Below, in pieces: positions 2,948 to 54,795 of a stretch of 64,000 bases of DNA. Location: contig CM059431.1 of NCBI GenBank assembly GCA_030390025.1, positions 100,628,001 through 100,692,000 of the forward strand, given 5' to 3'. The notes beneath the pieces were generated by a model. It was not told the origin of the DNA. It saw only the letters and a program-made list of their open reading frames with translations, and ran no database searches. Origin of the DNA: Squalus acanthias (taxonomy: Eukaryota). Every line of letters begins with the position of its first letter. The first letter of the stretch is position 1. The position numbers and the translations under genes are program-made.

Positions 2948-3786
2948 CTAAGCAAATCTGCCCAAGATGAGTGCATCCCTTGCATCCCAGGCAGCAACGT
3001 GCTCGCGTGCTGCTGCCACTGGTTGATGCGCCTCCACAAGGTCTTCATTCTCGTTCTCCTCCTCCCCATCTGAGGAGGCTATGCGCTGAGCCACTTGTTC
3101 CTCAGGCAGCTGCAAGCCACGATGCTGTGCGATGTTGTGAAGTGCACAGCAGACCACGACGATTCTGGATACCCTGGGTACTGCAGGGCTCCACCTGATC
3201 TATCAAGGCATCTGAATCACATCTTCAGCAAGCCGATGGTTTGCTCGATAATGGACCTGGTCGAAATGTGGCTGGAGTTGTAGCGCTCCTCAGCTTCGTT
3301 GGATGGCCTCCTGAACGGCGCCATTAGCCACGTCTTCAGGGGATAGCCCTCGTCTCCAAGTAGCCATCCGCAAAGTTGGTTTGGCGGACTGAAGAGCGGA
3401 GGCACACTAGACTGCCGCAGGATGAACGAGTCATGGCAACTGCCAGGGTACTTGGCGCAAACATGCAAAATGTCCTTCTTGTGGTTACACACCAGCTGCA
3501 CGTTGAGGGAGTGGAAGCCCTTGCAGTTGACAAAAAGAGCTGGATTGTGATGGGGTGCCTTAAGGGCCACATGTGTGCAGTCCACGATGCCCTGCACCCT
3601 TGGCAAGCCTGCCATATTTGCAAATCCAACCACACGCGCGGTTATACTTGCTTGATCCTTGGAGAAGTTTATGTAATTGTGCGCCTTTGTAAAGAGGGCA
3701 TCGGTAACCTGCGTGATGTAAGTGTGTGCGGCCGACTGGAAGATGCTGCTGATGTCTGCTGATGATCCCTGGAATGAGCCTGAAGC
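2948..3786 (-). pseudogene. Harbinger DDE transposase (HARBI1/DDE_Tnp_4-like), 5'-truncated, with an in-frame stop and a frameshift
   Basis: Motifs [53 protein letters not shown]; ends AARE..AWDARDALILGRFA*. Confidence 0.92.
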
Positions 3787-4164
3787 CCTCTGGGGTAGAG
3801 AATTCCAAAGATTCACAACCCCTAGTTCTAGACTCCCCACCCAGGGGAAACAGCCTCCCAGCATCTACCTTGTCAAGCCCTCTAAGAATTTTACACGTTG
3901 CAATGAGATCGTCCCTCATTCTTCTAAACTCCAGAGAATATAGGCATATTCTACTCAATCTCAATCTCTCCTCATAGGGCAACCCTCTGATCCCAGGGCG
4001 TCTTAAGGTTGTGAAAGGCGCTATACAAAGGCAAGTTCTTTCTTTCTTTAGTTGCCAATTTTTTCCACCTTCAACTCAACTCTAGTAATCTGTTGAGCAG
4101 CTTTAGACGTAGTCAATGGCACCAATTCTAAATGCTTTATCCAGGTAAAAACAATACAGACAAT

Positions 4165-16398: not shown

Positions 16399-16627
16399 TG
16401 ACGTAAGAAAACTACTAGGCACTTGGTCTAAGCGTTAAACAAAGCTTTAATCAACTGTTTTTCAACATGGAGGTCTAGTTGCGTCCTTCACTAATTCCTG
16501 TTAAAGAATGTCCTGCGCAAGCTAGGCCCATGTCCGAGTATTTATACTCATCCTGGACAGCGCCACCAGCAGGCCGCCCAGTATTATTTCATAAGTCATT
16601 TCCACATGAATGACAAGATTCATGTCA
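16399..16627 (-). mobile_element. Solo LTR (229 bp)
   Basis: TGAC...GTCA termini, 5-bp direct repeat ctcac (16394-16398 / 16628-16632), TATAAATA then ATTAAA on the minus strand. Confidence 0.75.
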
Positions 16628-16953
16628 CTCACCTTAACATTTTACGAGATTGCCCACGGGTTCCATGCTGCTCGGGGATCACGTCAGGTAAGCAGGTCAG
16701 GAGTTGTGTCACCATGAAATGATCTCTTTACTTGACAGCTGCAAATGTGCTATAAAAGCTCCTGTCTCACAGCTGTTCACTTTCCAAGCTCAGAAGCTGT
16801 TGCTTACTGCATTTGGAAGACAGACTGAGCTTTATGCAGCTTGCAAGTGTTTGGAGTCAACTCTGTATCCAGCGTCACCTCATTGGAACAACCTCTCTCA
16901 CCAGTGACAGATCGCTTCTGTCATCTCAACTTCACCTGCCATCTATTACATCA

Positions 16954-17118
16954 TGATGCGGAGATGCCGGTGTTGGACTGGGGTGGACAAAAATGAGAAG
17001 TCGCACAACACCAGGTTATAGTCCAACAGTTTTATTTACCTGAAGAAGGAGCAGCGCTCCGAAAGCTCGTAATTTTAAGTAAAACTGTTGGACTATAACC
17101 TGGTGTTGTGCGACTTCT
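16954..17118 (+). mobile_element. Penelope-derived hairpin mini-element (family B)
   Basis: 14-bp direct repeat catctattacatca (16940-16953 / 17119-17132); 41-bp perfect inverted repeat; same sequence as the terminal repeats at 29510-29605 and 54340-54470. Confidence 0.85.
17036..17072 (+). ncRNA. Minimal type I hammerhead ribozyme motif (family B)
   Basis: ttac-CTGAAGA-A-GGAGC agc GCTCC-GAAA-GC-TC-gtaa. Confidence 0.8.
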
Positions 17119-18287
17119 CATCTATTACATCAGCATCAGTGCCGTTGAAACTATCTCACCTTGGTCCTCAGAATCCCACCACGATCAGCCCCAACACCAG
17201 CAGCACCAACAACAACACCAACCTTCTCCGCAATCAACTGATGCTGCACAGGACATCAGCACCTGACCACATTGCTGCCTGGGACGCCAGGGATGGCCTC
17301 ACCATGGCCAGATTTACTTCACTTGTAGCTGTACATCCTGACTACCACATGATGCGCCAGGTTGGCACCACCCCACACCAACACCATAAAGCATCCCTAC
17401 AATGCCCAAGCCATTCCTTTCACACTCATCACCATTGCGGGGGGGTACCGTTATGTCTCACCATTCACTGCAACTCACTAAGCCTCTTCCAAAGGTGCAC
17501 ACAAATCTGTCCAAGAAAATAAAGATTTCAATGTTTGACAGCACATTAACAGAAACTTCACATAAACATTGCATAAAACACCAATGCCTACCCTTGTGTG
17601 TTGGTATGATTGGACAAGGATGAGTGTGAGGGGTGGTTAGTGAGATGGGGACGTGATAATGTAGATAGAGAGAGGGATGGGTGGCGGTGCGAGGTAAGTT
17701 GGTGTGAGTAAGGATGTGCAGGAGTAGGGTAGGGAAGGCAGAGTGATGGGGATATGATGAGTGGCACAGCAGGATGAGGTTGAGTGTGGCTTGGCAGTAA
17801 CATTTTGTGATCTACTGCGATCATTGAAAGGTTTGCGCCACTGCAGCCTGGTCCTCCTGACGACATCCCTGCTGGTGCCCTCCTGTGCAATGTGCAACCT
17901 GGCTGCGTTGGTCTCCTGGGAAGGTCTCTTCCGCCCATGGGAAGGGAAGAGATATGGAGGGAGTAATGGGAGAGCCTGGGTGCAGCGCTTTCAGTGTTTG
18001 CAGCACCTCAATGCTGTAGAACACTGACAGCACAACTGGCAAAATTAATTTGCGCATGGTCCCTTTAAGGAAACCGGCTGATGACGCATCATCGAATGAC
18101 GTCATCAGACCCGCTTCCTTCAATTGGCCGGGAAACGCGCTGGGCAGGTTTAACATGCCCAACCATCGTAAAATCATCCACAGAGCACGCTGGAGCCAGC
18201 AGTGAGGTCGGAGCCGCCACCGACCCCGGCCTCACCGAACCCGCTGAGGTAGGCGAAATCGCGGCTTTAGTGTCAGAGGAGTGTGGC

Positions 18288-22840: not shown

Positions 22841-23890
22841 CGAAAGCAAAATACTGCGGATGCTGGAAATCTGAAATAAAAACAGAAAATGCTGGAAATA
22901 CTCAGCAGGTCAGGCATCATCTGTAGAGAGAGAAACAGAGCGGAAGAGACTGGGCAAGGGGAGAAAAAATAGAGTCGAGATAGGAAGAGATAAGTTCCGT
23001 GGGGCAAGAACAGGCTGAAACGATGGGTCTTCCAGGGCAGTCCTGTTTGTGGATCTTGGGAAGGAGGTAGAAGCGGGCTGTGCGGGGTTGGGGAGCTATG
23101 AGGTTGGCGGCCGTGGAGGGAAGATCTCCAGAGGAGATGAGGTCAGTGACAGTGACTCCTCCCTTCCCACTGTCCAGGGCCCCAAACACTCTTTCCAGGT
23201 GAAACAGCGATTTACTTGTACTTCTTGCAATTTAATATACTGTATTCGCTGCTCACGATGCGGTCTCCTCTACACTGGGGAGACCAAATGCAGATTGGGT
23301 GACCGCTTTGCAGAACACCTCTGTTCAGTCCGTAAGGGTGACCCCGAGCTTCCGGTCACCTGTCACTTTAATTCCCCGCTCCACTCCCACGCTGACCTCT
23401 CCGTCCTCGGCCTCTTACACTGTTCCAATGAAGCTCAATGTAAGCTCGAGGAACAGCACCTCATCTTTCGATTAGGCACTTTACAGCCTTCTGGACTCAA
23501 CATCGAGTTCAACAACTTCAGATCATAACTTCTGCCCCTATCTTTTTTTTTCTCTCTCTCACATGGCTGCTGTCGATCATTCTGTCATTGCCATTTACAC
23601 TTCATCTAGAGTCATCTTTTGTTTCTTAACTTGTCCCATTACCATCTCCTTTTGCCTTGCACCATCATCCCTTTTGTCTCTTAATCTCTCCTGCCTTCCA
23701 TCCTAGCACAGACCTTCCCTTTTGTTCTTTCCCTCCCCTCCCCCCGCCCCTACACTTGCTTAAAAACCTGTTACATCTCCAACTTTTTCCAGTTCTGACG
23801 AAGGGTCATCAACCTGAAACGTTAACTGTTTCTCTCTCTACAGATGCTGCCTGACCTGCTGAGTATTTCCAGCATTTTCTGTTTTTATTT
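22841..23890 (+). mobile_element. Penelope-like element (family A): inverted terminal-repeat piece, inverted RT piece, GIY-YIG 3' part, terminal repeat
   Basis: RT motif FYLLPKIHK..PGRPIVS (-); endonuclease NLIYCIRCSRCGLLYTGET..RFAEH (+); 13-bp TSD aaaaatctatcaa (22828-22840 / 23891-23903) inside a CR1 3' end. Confidence 0.9.
23790..23828 (+). ncRNA. Minimal type I hammerhead ribozyme motif (family A)
   Basis: cagtt-CTGACGA-A-GGGT catca ACCT-GAAA-CG-TT-aactg. Confidence 0.78.
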
Positions 23891-27533: not shown

Positions 27534-28911
27534 AATGTCTCAGTTCTATTTATGTCTCTGTGGTTCTGTTTATAGCTCTGTTTACATTGCAAAGTGAGAT
27601 GTTGATTGGACGCGGACGCATGATCGGCTTTTAAAAAGCCAGTAATATACTGAACTGAACAAAATAGCCGGCGCATTTAATGGCCCGTAATTTGCGGTCA
27701 GCGGCGAAGCAAAGGCGCTCGCCACTGGCCCCGAAGAAAGTTGCCCACAGAGATCACAAGATCTCTGTGGCAAGAAGGTTACCTTTTTCAATGTGTAACT
27801 GATTGCAGCGCTGTGTAATGGGAATCCCCAGCGAAGAGCAGCAGTGACGTCAACAAGCTGTCTAAGCAGCCAATCGTATTGAAGAATTCTCACAGACAAC
27901 AAACTAGGAAATGAGAAGCTGCTTTTATCCGGACTTTTAAAAATTGTTAGAGAGCGGAACAAAGATTGGGACTCTCAATTGGGGATAAGGTAGACGCTGA
28001 AATATCGTGAACAAACTTTAAAAAAAATTTTTAACGTTTTTTTTAAATTGTAATTTTTATCAAAATGGAGAAATTTGACACTCCACAAATATAAAAATTA
28101 GTTTTTCAGGGCCAGAACGTTTGTTTAGCAGTCAATGCGCTGTTAATACCTGTTTTTTACTCTTATGTGAGAAATAAAAGAATGACCAGGGTGAGGGTAG
28201 GGCCGGTCAAGGACAGTAGTGGGAACTTGTGCATGGAGTCAGAAGAGATAGGAGAGGTGATGAATGAATACTTTTCGTCAGTGTTCACCGAGGAGAGGGG
28301 CCATGTTCTTGAGGATGAGAGTGTGATAAAGGTGGATAGGCTGGAGGTGGTAGATGTTCTGAGGGAAGATGTTTTAGCAATTTTGAAGAACCTGAGGGTC
28401 GATAAGTCCCCTGGGCCAGATGGGATATATCCTAGGATTCTTTGGGAGGCAAGGGAGGAGATTGCAGAGCCTCTGGCTTTGATCTTTGGGTCCTCACTGT
28501 CCACGGGGATGGTGCCAGAGGACTGGAGAGTGGCGAATGTTGTTCCTCTCTTCAAGAAAGGAAATAGGAATGACCCTGGTAATTATAGGCCGGTTAGTCT
28601 TACTTCGGTGGTTGGTAAGATAATGGAAAAGGTCCTGAGGGATAGGATTTATGACCATTTGGAAAGGGGTAACTTAATCAGGGATAGTCAACACGGATTC
28701 GTGAAGGGTAAGTCTTGCCTAACAAATTTGATTGAATTCTTTGAGGAGGTAACTAAGTGTGTAGATGAAGGTAGAGCAGTTGATGTCGTATACATGGATT
28801 TTAGTAAGGCGTTTGATAAGGTTCCCCATGGTCGTCTCATGAAGAAAGTAAGGAGTTGTGGGATAGAGGGAAATTTGGCCGATTGGATAAGTAACTGGCT
28901 ATCTCATAGAA

Positions 28912-29609
28912 TGCACCGCGGCATGGTACATCGGCGAGACCATGCAGACACTGAGACAACGTATGAACGAGCACCGCGCAACAATCGCCAGGCAGGATTG
29001 TTACCTCCCAGTCGGGGAACACTTCAGCAGTCAAGGACATTCAGCCTCGGATCTGCGGGTAAGCGTTCTCCAAGGCAACCTTAGAAACACACGACAACGC
29101 AAAATCATTGAGCAGAAACTGATAGCCAAGTTCCGCACTCATGAAGACGGTCTCAACCGGGATCTTGGGTTTATGTCACGATACATGACGTGATCCGGAC
29201 TCGAGTCGTCGTTGGCTTGTTCACAGATGTGATTCCCAGTAAAAATTTTCCCAGTAAAAAAGTAAAAATTTTAAAGCTTTTCGTTTTACATACAGACGGC
29301 AGCTTTTGACACGTTAGAACCCCTGCGACTACACCTCATTGTCTCAGTTGTATCTTGCTATGTCTTTGATGTGGTACCTTCCTGGCTGACTTAATTAACT
29401 TTATCACACCTCGGCAGATAGTCAGGATGATTTAATTTAGTGGTCTGCAATTGTAAGGTACACATGCTTTGTTCTCTATCTATATATGCTTTGGCGATTC
29501 TGTATCTAATTTACTTCACCTGAGGAAGGAGCAATCGATAGCTCCGAAAGCTTGTGATTTCAAATAAAACTGTTGGACTATAACCTGGTGTTGTGCGACC
29601 TCTCAATTT
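28912..29609 (+). mobile_element. Penelope-like element (family B), 5'-truncated: GIY-YIG C-terminus plus terminal repeat
   Basis: WYIGETMQTLRQRMNEHR...GLNRDLG; 12-bp TSD tatctcatagaa (28900-28911 / 29610-29621). Confidence 0.92.
29516..29557 (+). ncRNA. Minimal type I hammerhead ribozyme motif (family B)
   Basis: tcac-CTGAGGA-A-GGAGC aatcgata GCTCC-GAAA-GC-TT-gtga. Confidence 0.82.
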
Positions 29610-31969
29610 TATCTCATAGAAGGCAGAGGGTGGTGGTGGATGGAACATTTTCGGACTGGAGACCAGTTACCAGCGGTGTGCCACAGGGGTCGGTGCTGGG
29701 TCCTCTGCTGTTTGTGATTTTTATCAATGACTTGGAGGAGGGGACTGAAGGGTGGATCAGTAAATTTGCTGATGACACCAAGATTGGTGGAGTAGTGGAT
29801 GAGGTGGAGGGCAGTTGTAGGCTGCAAAGAGACATTGATAGGATGCAGAGCTGGGCCGAAAAATGGCAGATGGAATTTAACCCTGATAAGTGCGAGGTGA
29901 TTCATTTTGGTAGGGCAAATTTGAATAAGGATTACAGGGTCAACGGCAGGGTTCTGAGGAACGTGGAGGAGCAGAGGGATCTGGGGGTTCATATCCACAG
30001 ATCTCTGAAGGTTGCCACTCAAGTGGATAGAGCAGTAAAGAAGGCCTATGGTGTGTTGGCGTTTATTAACAGAGGGTTTGAGTTTAAGAACCGTGTGGTT
30101 ATGCTGCAACTGTACAGGACCTTGGTGAGACCACATTTGGAATATTGTGTGCAGTTCTGGTCACCTCACTATAGGAAGGACGTGGAAGCATTGGAAAGAG
30201 TGCAAAGGAGATTTACCAGGATGCTGCCTGGTTTGGGGGGGAGGTCTTATGAGGAAAGATTGAGGGAGTTGGGGCTTTTCTCTTTAGAGCGGAGGAGGAT
30301 GAGAGGCGACTTAATAGAGGTTTATAAGATGATGAGGGGGATAGATAGAGTGGATGTTCAGAGACTATTTCCTCGGGTAGAGGCAGCTGTTACAAGGGGG
30401 CATAGCTATAAGGTGCATGTGGGGAGATATAGAAGGGATGTCCGAGGTAGATTCTTTACTCAGAGAGTGGTTGGGGTGTGGAATGGACTGCCTGCTGTGA
30501 TAGTGGAGTCGGACACTTTAGGAACTTTCAAGCGGTTATTGGATAAGCACATGGAGCACACCAGAGTGACAGGGAGTGTGATAGCTTGATCTTGGTCTCG
30601 GACAATGCTCGGCACAACATCGAGGGCCGAAGGGCCTGTACTGTGCTGTACTGTTCTATGTTCTATGTACACCTATTCCAACAAAGCTTAACATTTAATG
30701 GGGTATTTAACAGCGATACTACCGCAGAAAAGCCGATGTTTTTGTCAGTTTCACTGATTTCCCCGATTACCGGCTATGGGATGGGGATGCACAGCGCAGC
30801 CAGTATCGGAGCAGTGAATGACTGACAGCTACATCCTGAAGTTGCGGTCAGTTTCATTGGGGTAATGGCGGCGAACGCTGACAGTTTCCGGGCAAAAATG
30901 TTTTAAATAGCGCCTTTGTAACTGATGCTATGGTAATGGCAAATGCTCAGTGCCATTTGCCCAAAATAGGCGGCTGTTGGGATAAGCAGGGTCAGTGTTA
31001 GTGGTGGGAACTGCGCTATTATGGAGCTTTGCTTCCAAATCACTTCAATGACAAGGTCTGACATCTTTTATTAAGATATGGCTCTTGCGTTTCTTTCAGA
31101 AACCTTCGCTCTAAACCCATACTGTACAAACACTAAAGATATTCTATTTTATTTTTTGAGTTTTGAGCCCTAATAAAGGACTGAGGCCGACACCAGCAAC
31201 ACAAAGAACAAGTGTAAGGAATTTCCGAATATCATCTTAATCATCATATAGAACACAGTTTGGAACATCAATCCTTGGCTCAGGGTCCATGATACTTAAA
31301 CTGAGGAACGAAATGCAAATTGAATTCCAAACTAATTTCTGACCACAGATCATTTGGATAACGATAAAACTATAAATTATTTCTCCGAAACATAAATTGA
31401 AGAGCCAGGGTAATTGCTTCATAGGATCCAAGTTACACCTGTCCAAAGGCCTGACATACTTCCATTGAGAACCTTTGCAATCTGTCCTCTGTCGAAACAG
31501 TCTCTCCCCACCCCAGCTCCTTAAAACTCTTGTTTCAAAGTTAGAAAAACTACCAACTTTTTTAAAATTCTAAATTCAATTTTCCATAAATTAGAACTTT
31601 TAAAAAGAGAAACAGCTGGGGTACAATTTAGCCAAGTAATTATGCTGGCAGAGAACAAGAGGAGTGCCAAATTTCTAATAAGCAACAAGGTATCTAGTGA
31701 ACCAAATAAACACCTCCCTATAAAATCTTTAAGGCTAATCCAGGAGACTATCTAAATACACGGTTACACAAGTCACAGGAGAAAGGATAGACCCGAAACT
31801 ATTTGGAGTTCGGCACATGGATCATCTCTACTTAATTAGTACGAGATTTTCAATAACATATTGTTTTAAATTAGACTTGATAAGAAAATATTTATTTCAT
31901 TTGGCTTAATTACTATGTTTTCATGCTGTTCCCGTCCCTTTCAGTACATGCCAGGTTTCCACTAGTTAC

Positions 31970-34008: not shown

Positions 34009-34473
34009 AGCTCAAGGAACAGCACCTCGTCTTTCTATTCGGCACTTTACAGCCTTCTGGACTTAACATCGAGTTCAACAATTTCAGGCTATAAATTGGC
34101 CCCTATATTCTTTCTTTTTTTCCCTCTTGTTTCCTCACATGGTAGCTGTTAATGTTGCTGCCATCATCATTCACACATCATCTAGAGCCATCTTTAGTTT
34201 CTTAACTTGTCCCATTACCTTTTGCCTTACACTATCATCCCTTTTGTCAGTCAATCTCTCCTGCCTTCCATCCCATCACAGACCTTCCCTTTGCTATTTC
34301 CTCCCCTCCTCTGCTTAAAAATCTCTCCTCCCTCACCTTTTCCAGTTCTGACGAAGGGTTCGACCCGAAACGTTAACTCTGTTTCTCTCTCTTCGATGCC
34401 GCCTGACCTGCTGAGTGTTTCCAGCACTTTCTGCTGTTATTTCAGATTTCCAGCATCCGCAGTATTTTGCTAT
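34009..34473 (+). mobile_element. Penelope-like element (family A), 3' fragment
   Basis: Similar to 23443-23890; 15-bp direct repeat tataaaaatatacct (33994-34008 / 34474-34488). Confidence 0.88.
34344..34378 (+). ncRNA. Minimal type I hammerhead ribozyme motif (family A)
   Basis: agtt-CTGACGA-A-GGGT tcg ACCC-GAAA-CG-TT-aact. Confidence 0.82.
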
Positions 34474-54154: not shown

Positions 54155-54795
54155 TAGGCTGCAGTTGTTTTCTTTGGAACAGAGGAGGCTGAGGGGAGAC
54201 TTAATTGAGGTGTATAAAATTATGAGGGGCCGAGATAGCATGGATAGGAAGGACCGATTTCCCATGGCAGTTGGAAAGATTAACTGTAATCATCTGGCAG
54301 TGTTCTCTGACTATATATGCTGTGCCTATATGCATCTCTTCACTTCACCTGACGAAGGAGCAGCGCTCCGAAAGCTTGTGATTTCAAATAAAGCTGTTGG
54401 ACTATAACCTGGTGTTGTGCGGCTTCTCACATTTGTCCACCCCAGTCCAACACCGGCATCTCCACATCATGGCTATTTCCCTTAGCAGAGGGTTCAATAA
54501 CCAGGGGGCACAGATTTAAAGTAATTGGTCGGAGGTTTAGAAGGGAGTTGAGGAGAACTTTTTTCACCCAGGGTGTGGTGGGGGTCTGGAACTCACTGCC
54601 TGAAAGGGTGGTAGAGGCAGAAACCCTCATCACATTTAAAAAGTACTTGGATACACACTTGAAGTGCCGTAACCTACAGGGCTACGGACCAAGAGCTGGA
54701 AAGTGGGATTAGGCTGGATCGCTCTTTGTCGGCCGACACGGACACGATGGGCCGAATGGCCTCCTTCTGTGCCGTAAATTTCTATGATTCTATGA
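54155..54795 (+). mobile_element. CR1 3' fragment interrupted by a Penelope family B terminal repeat (about 54271-54474)
   Basis: FSLEQRRLRGDLIEVYK; imperfect duplication atttcccatggcag / atttcccttagcag around the insert. Confidence 0.85.
54345..54381 (+). ncRNA. Minimal type I hammerhead ribozyme motif (family B)
   Basis: tcac-CTGACGA-A-GGAGC agc GCTCC-GAAA-GC-TT-gtga. Confidence 0.83.

What the first reader, a model, noticed from the sequence alone, without database searches (positions are those of the whole stretch)
16954..17118. 165-bp non-coding insertion: a perfect 41-bp hairpin with a hammerhead in its loop
Seen: arms 16994-17034 and 17080-17120 are exact reverse complements. The 45-nt loop is almost entirely the hammerhead, and a 14-bp direct repeat flanks the unit. 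Stem I is ttac/gtaa rather than tcac/gtga, so pairing is kept, although the left change may come from the inversion junction. Inference: either an extreme truncation-plus-inversion product of a PLE, or a member of a non-autonomous, retrozyme-like ribozyme mini-element family.
Basis: partly seen in the sequence, partly recalled or inferred. Interest (0 to 1): 0.7.

Follow-up and report, generated by a model that had tools for sequence, protein, structure and literature searches.

The report
Abortive head-to-head Penelope retroelement insertion
The 165-bp hairpin is an ordinary, dead-on-arrival insertion of a very abundant Penelope-like retroelement: two very short copies of the element's 3' end joined head to head, with the element's small hammerhead motif caught in the loop by position alone.

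Summary
A 42-bp perfect inverted repeat (46 bp with one mismatch), a 45-nt loop with a hammerhead-like motif and an exact 14-bp target duplication are all present. Paralogous empty sites show a 165-bp insertion.

It is not a separate ribozyme mini-element. Both arms are copies of the 3' end of a Penelope-like element (PLE) whose long copies encode RT plus a GIY-YIG-like endonuclease. One arm ends with the family's 39-nt "tail"; the other ends 39 nt short of it.

- The arm 26-mer occurs 97,107 times in the 3.7-Gb genome.
- Head-to-head pairs are the default arrangement: 31 such pairs, against 3 for each other orientation, among the first 100 hits.
- 1,896 hairpins share this loop-size class.
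- All 40 sampled have one tailed and one tail-less arm, 37 have 9-15-bp duplications, and only 16 hold a complete hammerhead.

These copies fall in several parent subfamilies and both tail orientations, so it is a recurrent microhomology junction and not a lineage.

This matches published PLE architecture. An earlier follow-up in this scan, on other DNA of this genome, reached a similar "ordinary PLE tail" verdict. Interest is low to moderate.

The parts
16940..16953 (.). Left copy of the 14-bp target-site duplication CATCTATTACATCA
   Evidence: D3, 100% identity. Paralogous empty sites carry one copy.
16954..16992 (-). 39-nt PLE 'tail' in inverted orientation. On the minus strand it reads ttttgtccaccccagtccaacaccggcatctccgcatca. 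Its outer end is the distal 3' terminus of the family ('site 2').
   Evidence: same tail in the linear copy at 54432-54470; one arm of 40/40 hairpins ends here.
16993..17038 (-). Arm 1: antisense copy of the element segment between the hammerhead and the tail. With the tail it forms one 85-nt minus-strand retro-copy, 16954-17038.
   Evidence: 26-mer at 17004-17029, minus strand; blastn 16953-17037, 93% to the extended reference.
17037..17038 (.). Inversion junction: the dinucleotide TA is shared by the antisense arm (...ttattTAaaattac in the parent) and the sense copy (...cttgTAcctga in the parent).
   Evidence: Parent context; window sequence. The microhomology reading is an inference.
17036..17072 (+). 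Minimal (PLE-type) hammerhead motif. Stem I 17036-39 / 17069-72; core CUGAAGA 17040-46; extra A 17047; stem II 17048-52 / 17056-60; GAAA 17061-64; palindromic AGCU 17064-67; C17 at 17068, with the predicted cleavage after it.
   Evidence: Features compared with Cervera & de la Pena 2014. No Rfam hit.
17037..17121 (+). Arm 2: sense copy running from 3 nt upstream of the hammerhead core to the proximal 3' terminus ('site 1', ...cttctcat). It has no tail, and its last 3 nt (cat) overlap the TSD.
   Evidence: the second arm of 40/40 hairpins ends at reference positions 145-165.
17079..17079 (+). G where the other arm and the subfamily have A. This is the only arm mismatch and is probably a post-insertion change or an RT error.
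   Evidence: 98% over 46 nt; the subfamily reads ttttaaataaaactg.
17119..17132 (.). Right copy of the 14-bp target-site duplication

Best explanation
The 165 bp are one abortive ('dead-on-arrival') integration event of an autonomous, very abundant Penelope-like retroelement.

Shown:
- The insert sits between an exact 14-bp target duplication, at a site that is empty in paralogues.
- It consists of two opposed copies of the element's 3' end.
- One copy (minus strand, 85 nt) ends at the family's distal 3' terminus and so carries the 39-nt 'tail'. The other (plus strand, about 85 nt) ends at the proximal terminus 39 nt upstream and reaches just past the hammerhead.
- The same architecture is the family's default genome-wide.

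Inferred:
- The element's GIY-YIG endonuclease nicked both target strands 14 bp apart.
- Each 3'-OH primed reverse transcription at one of the two adjacent internal start sites of the element RNA. Both features were reported in vitro for an Anolis PLE.
- Both cDNAs stopped after about 85 nt.
- The 3' end of the longer one annealed to the other through a 2-nt TA microhomology and copied it out to the flank.
- Host repair then sealed the product.

The hammerhead is a passenger. It lies in the loop only because it sits about 15-50 nt upstream of the duplicated segment. As a helix-III-less 'min-HHR' it could cleave only as a dimer, and nothing suggests it acts here.

Confidence in the identity (truncated, inverted PLE insertion) is about 0.9. 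Confidence in the dual-priming mechanism as stated is about 0.55.
For: Anatomy:
- TSD and inverted repeat; empty sites in 4 of 5 paralogues read.
- The left arm continues into the same tail that ends the linear copy at 54266-54470.

Family:
- The arm 26-mer occurs 97,107 times exactly, with 0 in the reversed control.
- Among the first 100 hits, 31 adjacent minus/plus pairs lie within 4 kb (spacings 73-3,475 bp). That compares with 3 plus/minus, 3 plus/plus and 3 minus/minus.
- 1,896 hairpins have a 40-70-nt gap between the arm anchors, with 0 in the control.
- In the first 40 of these, 40/40 have one arm reaching reference position 186-191 (tail) and one ending at 145-165 (no tail).
- 37/40 have exact TSDs of 9-15 bp (median 12), and inserts are 155-204 bp.
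- The same one-tail rule holds in 8/8 same-junction loci and in 5/5 further pairs.
- Junction points differ from locus to locus. They recur at self-complementary spots: the stem II palindrome, AGCT and GTAC.

Parent:
- Long head-to-head pairs hold ORFs.
- L063 is a TSD-flanked unit with a 186-bp inverted tail-less arm, then a 694-aa open frame, then a 3' UTR with hammerhead, arm and tail.
- That frame hits RVT_1 at E 1.1e-8. Its C-terminus aligns (E 2e-12, 32% over 124 aa) with a window ORF that has a near-threshold GIY-YIG hit (E 2.8e-4, 21.6 bits against a 22.6 cut-off).

Literature:
- Craig et al. 2021, PMC8557442, passages read. PLE insertions are highly 5'-truncated, often have an inverted 5'-truncated copy adjacent, and carry a 30-40-bp tail often at one end only.
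- Frangieh et al. 2024, PMC11167929, main text read. The Anolis PLE protein cleaves and extends both strands. RT starts at two adjacent internal sites, and the tail is the sequence between them. Hammerhead mutants do not affect insertion.

Age: the 39-nt hammerhead stretch is identical to 494 exact genomic copies, and the arms differ at 1 of 46 positions, so the insertion is recent.
Against: - No biochemistry exists for this element, so the dual-priming steps are borrowed from one lizard PLE.
- In that system the start site did not differ between top and bottom strands. Independent choice would therefore predict many tail/tail or none/none pairs, and I saw none in 53. The coupling is real but unexplained.
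- At one subfamily-polymorphic position just inside the arms, the two arms disagree in 4 of 43 evaluable hairpins. This hints at two template RNAs in some events and sits badly with both a one-RNA model and a fold-back model.
- Pfam finds no GIY-YIG domain directly in the L063 ORF (C-terminal 200 aa at E<=10 gives 0 families).
- The hairpin sample was anchored on exact 13-mers in both arms and one loop-size class, all on contig 1.
Confidence: 0.8

Rival explanations
1. The same PLE insertion, made by a different route. A single target-primed cDNA started at the distal site (with tail), folded back on itself at a short self-complementary spot and copied itself. The second arm is then a copy of the first and not a second priming event.
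For: - Junctions cluster at palindromes: stem II, AGCT and GTAC.
- The arms are near-perfect complements. Outside two loci with indels, few mismatches fall in the first 31 arm positions compared in 48 hairpins.
Against: - A copy-back should run through the tail and into the flank. Instead the second arm stops at the proximal terminus in 40/40, 8/8 and 5/5. That terminus is also used by simple, non-inverted copies, for example window 29.08-29.61 kb.
- 4 of 43 hairpins have arms that differ at a subfamily-diagnostic site.
- Both strands are extended in vitro in another PLE.
Confidence: 0.2
2. An independent, non-autonomous hairpin or retrozyme-like mini-element. Its RNA (arm, hammerhead, arm) would be transcribed, perhaps processed by the ribozyme, and retro-copied as a unit by PLE proteins.
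For: - The junction 27-mer is found at 10 places with up to 2 mismatches and 0 in the control.
- The 8 loci read have different 12-14-bp TSDs.
- Animal retrozymes are reported as PLE derivatives (preprint 10.64898/2026.07.22.740005; abstract and passages read).
Against: - The 8 copies fall in at least 5 parent subfamilies, each of which also makes hairpins with other junctions.
- The tail is on the hammerhead-sense arm in 4 and on the opposite arm in 4.
- The short arm always ends at the family's proximal terminus and not at a transcript start.
- 24 of 40 hairpins lack a complete hammerhead.
- There is a single hammerhead and no tandem unit at the locus. Among 99 adjacent pairs of the 26-mer, none on the same strand lies within 1 kb.
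Confidence: 0.06
3. Two separate insertions, one nested beside the other, or a DNA-level palindrome or assembly artefact.
For: None specific. No single public contig spanning the whole 321-bp stretch was listed.
Against: - One exact TSD pair brackets the whole unit, and paralogues are empty.
- The same TSD-flanked structure occurs in 37 of 40 sampled loci, out of 1,896 loci in that size class.
Confidence: 0.02

Closest known systems
Insertion architecture of canonical endonuclease-positive Penelope-like elements (Penelope/Poseidon/Neptune type), as described in Craig et al. 2021 (PMC8557442) and Frangieh et al. 2024 (PMC11167929)
   Same: - The parent has RT plus a C-terminal GIY-YIG-like endonuclease.
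- The hammerhead lies in the terminal non-coding region.
- Strong 5' truncation.
- An inverted 5'-truncated copy abuts the 5' end.
- A 30-40-bp tail (39 nt here) at one end only.
- Two adjacent 3' termini.
- AT-rich targets with a TSD.
   Different: Both copies are truncated to about 85 nt, so nothing but arm, hammerhead and tail remains. In my samples the one-tail rule is strict (53 of 53), where the papers say 'often'.
Minimal hammerheads (min-HHR) of metazoan PLEs, Cervera & de la Pena 2014 (PMC4209133)
   Same: - CUGANGA and GAAA cores.
[quoted passage not shown]
- A G10.1-C11.1 pair.
- Palindromic positions 15.2-16.2 (AGCU) with no helix III, implying action as a dimer.
- A short helix I.
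   Different: Helix I is artificially prolonged by the 42-bp arms, after a 5-nt asymmetric bulge. There is only one motif at the locus, so no partner for dimerisation in cis. Activity is untested.
Twin-priming 5' inversions of human L1
   Same: Both nicked target strands are thought to prime cDNA. The product is an inversion joined at microhomology inside one TSD pair.
   Different: L1 inverts a more 5' segment with little or no duplication, and the internal priming site is variable. Here both arms cover the same 3' segment (42-46 bp duplicated in inverted form) and start at two fixed sites 39 nt apart.
Non-LTR retrozymes of animals (Cervera & de la Pena 2020, cited; Li et al. 2026 preprint)
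   Same: Non-coding, carrying a hammerhead, and derived from PLE terminal sequence.
   Different: Retrozymes are tandem direct repeats whose flanking hammerheads release a unit that circularises. This is a solo inverted unit with one hammerhead.

Membership tests
Penelope-like element (insertion product) | Parent element encodes a PLE-type RT with a GIY-YIG endonuclease in one ORF | tested here: inconclusive
   L063 has a 694-aa frame between the family's termini. It hits RVT_1 at E 1.1e-8. Its C-terminus matches (E 2e-12) a window ORF with a sub-threshold GIY-YIG hit (21.6 against 22.6 bits). There is no direct Pfam GIY-YIG hit in L063. PLE-typical motifs such as ...FYCLPKIHK... and ...VVYL.RC...YIGET... 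are recognised from memory only.
Penelope-like element (insertion product) | [quoted passage not shown] | tested here: met
   A 39-nt tail on the left arm only. The same holds in 40/40 sampled hairpins, 8/8 and 5/5. The feature is as defined.
Penelope-like element (insertion product) | Inverted 5'-truncated copy adjacent to the 5' end; heavy 5' truncation | tested here: met
   for the locus. for the family: 31 head-to-head pairs against 3 for each other orientation. L063 shows the full-length version.
Penelope-like element (insertion product) | Hammerhead motif in the terminal repeat or UTR | tested here: met
   The motif lies about 85 nt from the 3' end in L063 and in window copies.
Hammerhead ribozyme, PLE min-HHR type | Conserved core (C3-A9, G12-A14), A15.1-U16.1, and H17 not G | tested here: met
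   CUGAAGA ... GAAA ... U, C17 at 17040-17068. The pattern gives 4 matches against 0.11 expected in the window.
Hammerhead ribozyme, PLE min-HHR type | Extra nucleotide between 9 and 10.1; G10.1-C11.1; palindromic 15.2-16.2; short helix I (features listed in PMC4209133) | tested here: met
   A17047; G17048-C17060; AGCU at 17064-67; helix I UAC/GUA, plus one junction-derived pair. Between subfamilies helix I changes from UCAC/GUGA to UAC/GUA, and stem II A-U changes to G-U.
Hammerhead ribozyme (Rfam families) | Match to an Rfam hammerhead covariance model | tested here: not met
   No hammerhead family at gathering score in the window, nor at E<=10 in 16500-17600 or 17028-17090. My inference is that this is expected for a motif without helix III.
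Hammerhead ribozyme | Self-cleavage | not testable with these tools
   No assay was possible. The literature reports low in vitro activity for min-HHRs, and only as dimers.
Non-LTR retrozyme | Tandem direct repeats, each with a hammerhead, giving unit-length circular RNA | tested here: not met
   There is one hammerhead and no direct repeat unit at the locus. No same-strand neighbours of the 26-mer lie within 1 kb among 99 adjacent pairs. Circular RNA could not be tested, because no run on record as RNA was listed.
   Shared junction and different TSDs: yes, at 10 places with 8 read. Own lineage: no. The copies fall in at least 5 parent subfamilies and both tail orientations. Other junctions occur within the same subfamilies.

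The most novel reading that the evidence does not exclude
The thousands of TSD-flanked mini-hairpins are frozen intermediates of PLE integration. They show a strict coupling that in vitro work has not revealed: every head-to-head event uses the proximal start site on one DNA strand and the distal (tail) start site on the other (53 of 53). The two antisense cDNAs are joined where the element's own hammerhead helices and other small palindromes offer self-complementarity. If so, one role of the conserved hammerhead region in PLEs could be structural, as a built-in joining site for the two cDNAs, and not RNA cleavage. In addition, a genome carrying on the order of 10^4 perfect 40-150-bp hairpins in introns would have a large reservoir of dsRNA-forming transcripts.
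Probability: 0.3. Interest if true: 0.55.

Novelty: new member of a known kind. Interest (0 to 1): 0.25.

Why it matters
For annotation, hairpins like this should be masked as PLE fragments. They should not be called as miRNA precursors, MITEs or retrozymes. Rfam's miRNA models give spurious sub-threshold hits here.

For mechanism, the family offers a very large natural sample of PLE integration products with both ends and the inner junction readable in under 200 bp. Two regularities are constraints that any model of the still poorly understood PLE integration cycle must meet. One is the strict rule of one tailed and one tail-less arm. The other is the clustering of junctions at palindromes.

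The single locus in the finding has no special significance.

Tried and rejected
- Rfam at gathering score on the window, and at E<=10 on 1.1 kb and on the 63-nt loop, gave no hammerhead family. The only hits were sub-threshold miRNA-hairpin matches (MIR856 38 bits against 297; MIR6425; mir-39), which reflect the long stem.
- A first fixed-spacing hammerhead pattern found nothing because the spacing was wrong. A pattern with a variable gap worked.
Four runs were laid as contigs. They showed only massive multi-copy cover of the repeat parts, no listed piece spanning the stretch, and loose ends that continue as the ordinary element or as the empty host repeat. Nothing can be said about expression, small RNAs or circles.
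- L014 first looked like a 755-bp tandem. On reading it is separate insertions in copies of another repeat, so it is not evidence for a tandem unit.
- A Pfam search of the C-terminal 200 aa of the L063 ORF gave nothing.
- A literature search for Penelope + twin priming + inverted returned 2 papers, neither on this question judging by listing and abstract start only. I therefore cannot say whether a twin-priming model for PLE inversions is in print elsewhere.
- I did not identify the organism. My impression that this repeat is typical of cartilaginous fishes is recollection only.

Full report
**1. The observation**

The repeat finder gives inverted arms 16993-17038 / 17076-17121, 46 nt at 98%, with 37 nt between them. 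It also gives an exact 14-bp direct repeat, CATCTATTACATCA, at 16940-16953 and 17119-17132. The perfect part of the arms is 42 bp, and the loop between the perfect parts is 45 nt. As RNA the 165-nt insert folds to -88.1 kcal/mol, z = -14.1 against 200 shuffles.

The flank is itself a high-copy repeat (1,366 first-look candidates). In 4 of 5 paralogous loci read, a single copy of the 14-mer runs straight into the right flank. The fifth was printed in the wrong orientation. So the 165 bp are an insertion with a true target-site duplication.

**2. The hammerhead**

The loop holds UUAC-CUGAAGA-A-GGAGC(AGC)GCUCC-GAAA-GC-U-C / GUAA at 17036-17072. No Rfam hammerhead model reports it, at gathering score or at E<=10. 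Only miRNA-hairpin models give sub-threshold hits, which reflect the long stem.

It does meet every feature that Cervera & de la Pena 2014 list for the 'min-HHR' of metazoan PLEs (PMC4209133, passages read):
- a G10.1-C11.1 pair;
- a palindromic 15.2-16.2 (AGCU) in place of helix III, hence a presumed dimeric mode of action;
- a short helix I.

A loose core pattern finds 4 sites in the window against 0.11 expected: three of this family (17040, 29520, 54349) and one of a second family (34348). Of stem I, only UAC/GUA is native.

**3. What the arms are**

The arm 26-mer also occurs at 29570 and 54394 in the window. The copy at 54266-54470 gives the linear order: upstream UTR, hammerhead, a 12-nt spacer, the arm segment, then a 39-nt end ...tttgtccaccccagtccaacaccggcatctccacatcatg.

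In the finding, the left arm read on the minus strand runs on into exactly this end. The right arm stops 39 nt short of it, at ...cttctcat. So the insert is two opposed copies of the element's 3' end. One is a minus-strand copy (16954-17038) with the terminal 39 nt. The other is a plus-strand copy (17037-17121) that reaches 3 nt past the hammerhead core and lacks the terminal 39 nt. They meet at a shared TA dinucleotide.

**4. The family and its default architecture**

The own genome (3.71 Gb) holds 97,107 exact copies of the 26-mer, with 0 in the reversed control. Among the first 100 hits, 31 adjacent minus/plus (head-to-head) pairs lie within 4 kb, at spacings of 73-3,475 bp, 17 of them at 266 bp or less. 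That compares with 3 plus/minus, 3 plus/plus and 3 minus/minus.

A pattern asking for both arm anchors 40-70 nt apart finds 1,896 loci, with 0 in the control. I fetched the first 40 of the 50 listed on contig 1 and found:
- 40/40 have one arm reaching reference position 186-191 (with the 39-nt end) and one ending at 145-165 (without it);
- 37/40 have exact TSDs of 9-15 bp (median 12), and 3/40 have only 5-6 bp;
- inserts are 155-204 bp.

The inner junction differs from locus to locus. Only 16 of 40 loops hold a complete CUGANGA hammerhead. In 10 of those the hammerhead is antisense to the tailed arm, as in the finding, and in 6 it is sense. The other 24 hold partial or palindromic remnants. 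Junctions recur at self-complementary spots: the stem II hairpin, AGCT, and in the finding's own subfamily a GTAC palindrome seen repeatedly.

**5. The parent**

Long head-to-head pairs contain ORFs. L063 is a complete example, flanked by a 13-bp TSD. It has a 186-bp inverted, tail-less arm, then a 694-aa open frame, then a roughly 250-nt 3' UTR with hammerhead, arm and tail.

The frame hits RVT_1 at E 1.1e-8. Its C-terminus aligns (E 2e-12, 32% identity over 124 aa) with the window ORF 23019-23525, which has a near-threshold GIY-YIG hit. A direct Pfam GIY-YIG hit in L063 is lacking, so I score this membership feature as inconclusive. The domain order and the termini fit a canonical endonuclease-positive PLE.

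**6. Comparison with the literature**

Craig et al. 2021 (PMC8557442, passages read) describe PLE insertions as:
- highly 5'-truncated;
- often preceded by an inverted 5'-truncated copy that creates inverted repeats;
- carrying a 30-40-bp 'tail' often at only one end.

Frangieh et al. 2024 (PMC11167929, main text read) report for an Anolis PLE protein that:
- it cleaves and extends both target strands;
- reverse transcription starts at two adjacent internal sites;
- the genomic tail is the sequence between those sites;
- hammerhead mutations do not change insertion.

The finding is the minimal version of exactly this. The 39-nt end is the tail, the two arm ends are the two start sites, and both cDNAs stopped after about 85 nt.

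**7.

The junction 27-mer occurs at 10 places with up to 2 mismatches and 0 in the control. The 8 read have 8 different 12-14-bp TSDs. Taken literally, that would indicate a family. The evidence against a lineage is as follows.
- The 8 differ at hammerhead position 7 (A, C or G), in the stem II loop (four versions), in GCUC against GCUU, in GUAA against GUGA, in the spacer and in the arm end. They therefore belong to at least 5 parent subfamilies.
- Every one of those subfamilies also appears among the 40 random hairpins with other junctions.
- In 4 of the 8 the tail is on the hammerhead-sense arm, and in 4 on the other arm.
- Other junctions recur as well. For example, tcac|ttcacctga occurs in 3 of the 50 listed loci.

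I conclude that this junction is a recurrent template-switch point with 2-3 nt of microhomology, and not a heritable mark.

**8. Mechanism, and what stays open**

My best reading is dual priming from the two staggered nicks, at the two start sites, followed by joining of the two antisense cDNAs at a small self-complementary overlap.

The strict one-tail rule (40/40, 8/8 and 5/5) shows that the two ends are coupled. The in vitro report saw no strand difference in start-site use, so independent choice is excluded. How the coupling works is unknown.

A fold-back variant explains the palindromic junctions. It does not explain why the second arm always stops at the proximal site.

At one subfamily-polymorphic position, the two arms disagree in 4 of 43 evaluable hairpins. 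Outside two loci with indels, few mismatches fall in the first 31 arm positions compared. This hints that some events used two RNA molecules, but the numbers are small.

**9. Verdict**

This is a real and correctly described structure, explained as an ordinary product of a known kind of element. An earlier follow-up of this scan, on other DNA of the same genome, came to a similar verdict for simple truncated tails (e1-7789890). What goes beyond that is the family-level regularity, which may be useful for PLE mechanism studies. The locus itself is not special.

Noticed in passing
window 34348-34370 (+), context 34320-34460: A second min-hammerhead family, CUGACGA-A-GGGUUCGACCC-GAAAC-GUU, with a palindromic AACGUU in place of helix III. 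It has a different downstream sequence and belongs to another PLE-type repeat.
   Followed up: no
window 22917-23528: Fragment of a different PLE. An RT N-terminal frame on the minus strand (22917-23231, ...FYLLPKIHKQDCPGRPIVSA...) abuts an endonuclease C-terminal frame on the plus strand (23019-23528; GIY-YIG E 2.8e-4). This is again a head-to-head arrangement. It shows no nucleotide similarity to the finding's family.
   Followed up: partly
window 29080-29609, inside 28095-30586: A 5'-truncated, non-inverted copy of the same PLE family. It holds the last ~35 codons of the ORF, the 3' UTR, the hammerhead and the arm, and ends at the proximal terminus without a tail. It interrupts a LINE reverse-transcriptase frame, with RVT_1 hits on both sides.
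   Followed up: partly
window 54266-54470: A simple 5'-truncated copy of the same family, with the tail, inserted into the 3' part of a LINE-like repeat. Genomic copies are 98-100% identical to it, so the family is young.
   Followed up: partly
window 16780-16953 and 17133 onward: The host sequence of the insertion is itself a high-copy repeat (1,366 first-look candidates, 96-98% identity). Its nature was not determined.
   Followed up: no
L021 (C1:2899665-2900137) and L022 (C1:3049782-3050259): Two hairpin insertions with different inner junctions sit at the same target motif (TSD TCTATTTATGAAGC and TCTATTTATGAA) in what look like paralogous copies of another repeat. This may be a target-site preference. 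TSDs in general are AT-rich.
   Followed up: no
L025, L026, L034, L037 (first base inside the arm anchors): The two arms of one hairpin differ at a position that is polymorphic between subfamilies (aaataaaActg against aaataaaGctg), in 4 of 43 evaluable hairpins. Outside two loci with indels, few mismatches occur elsewhere in the arms. The cause could be two RNA templates, recurrent mutation or RNA editing; it is unresolved.
   Followed up: partly
window 3220-3864 (-): A DDE_Tnp_4 (Harbinger-type) transposase fragment, E 1.5e-26.
   Followed up: no
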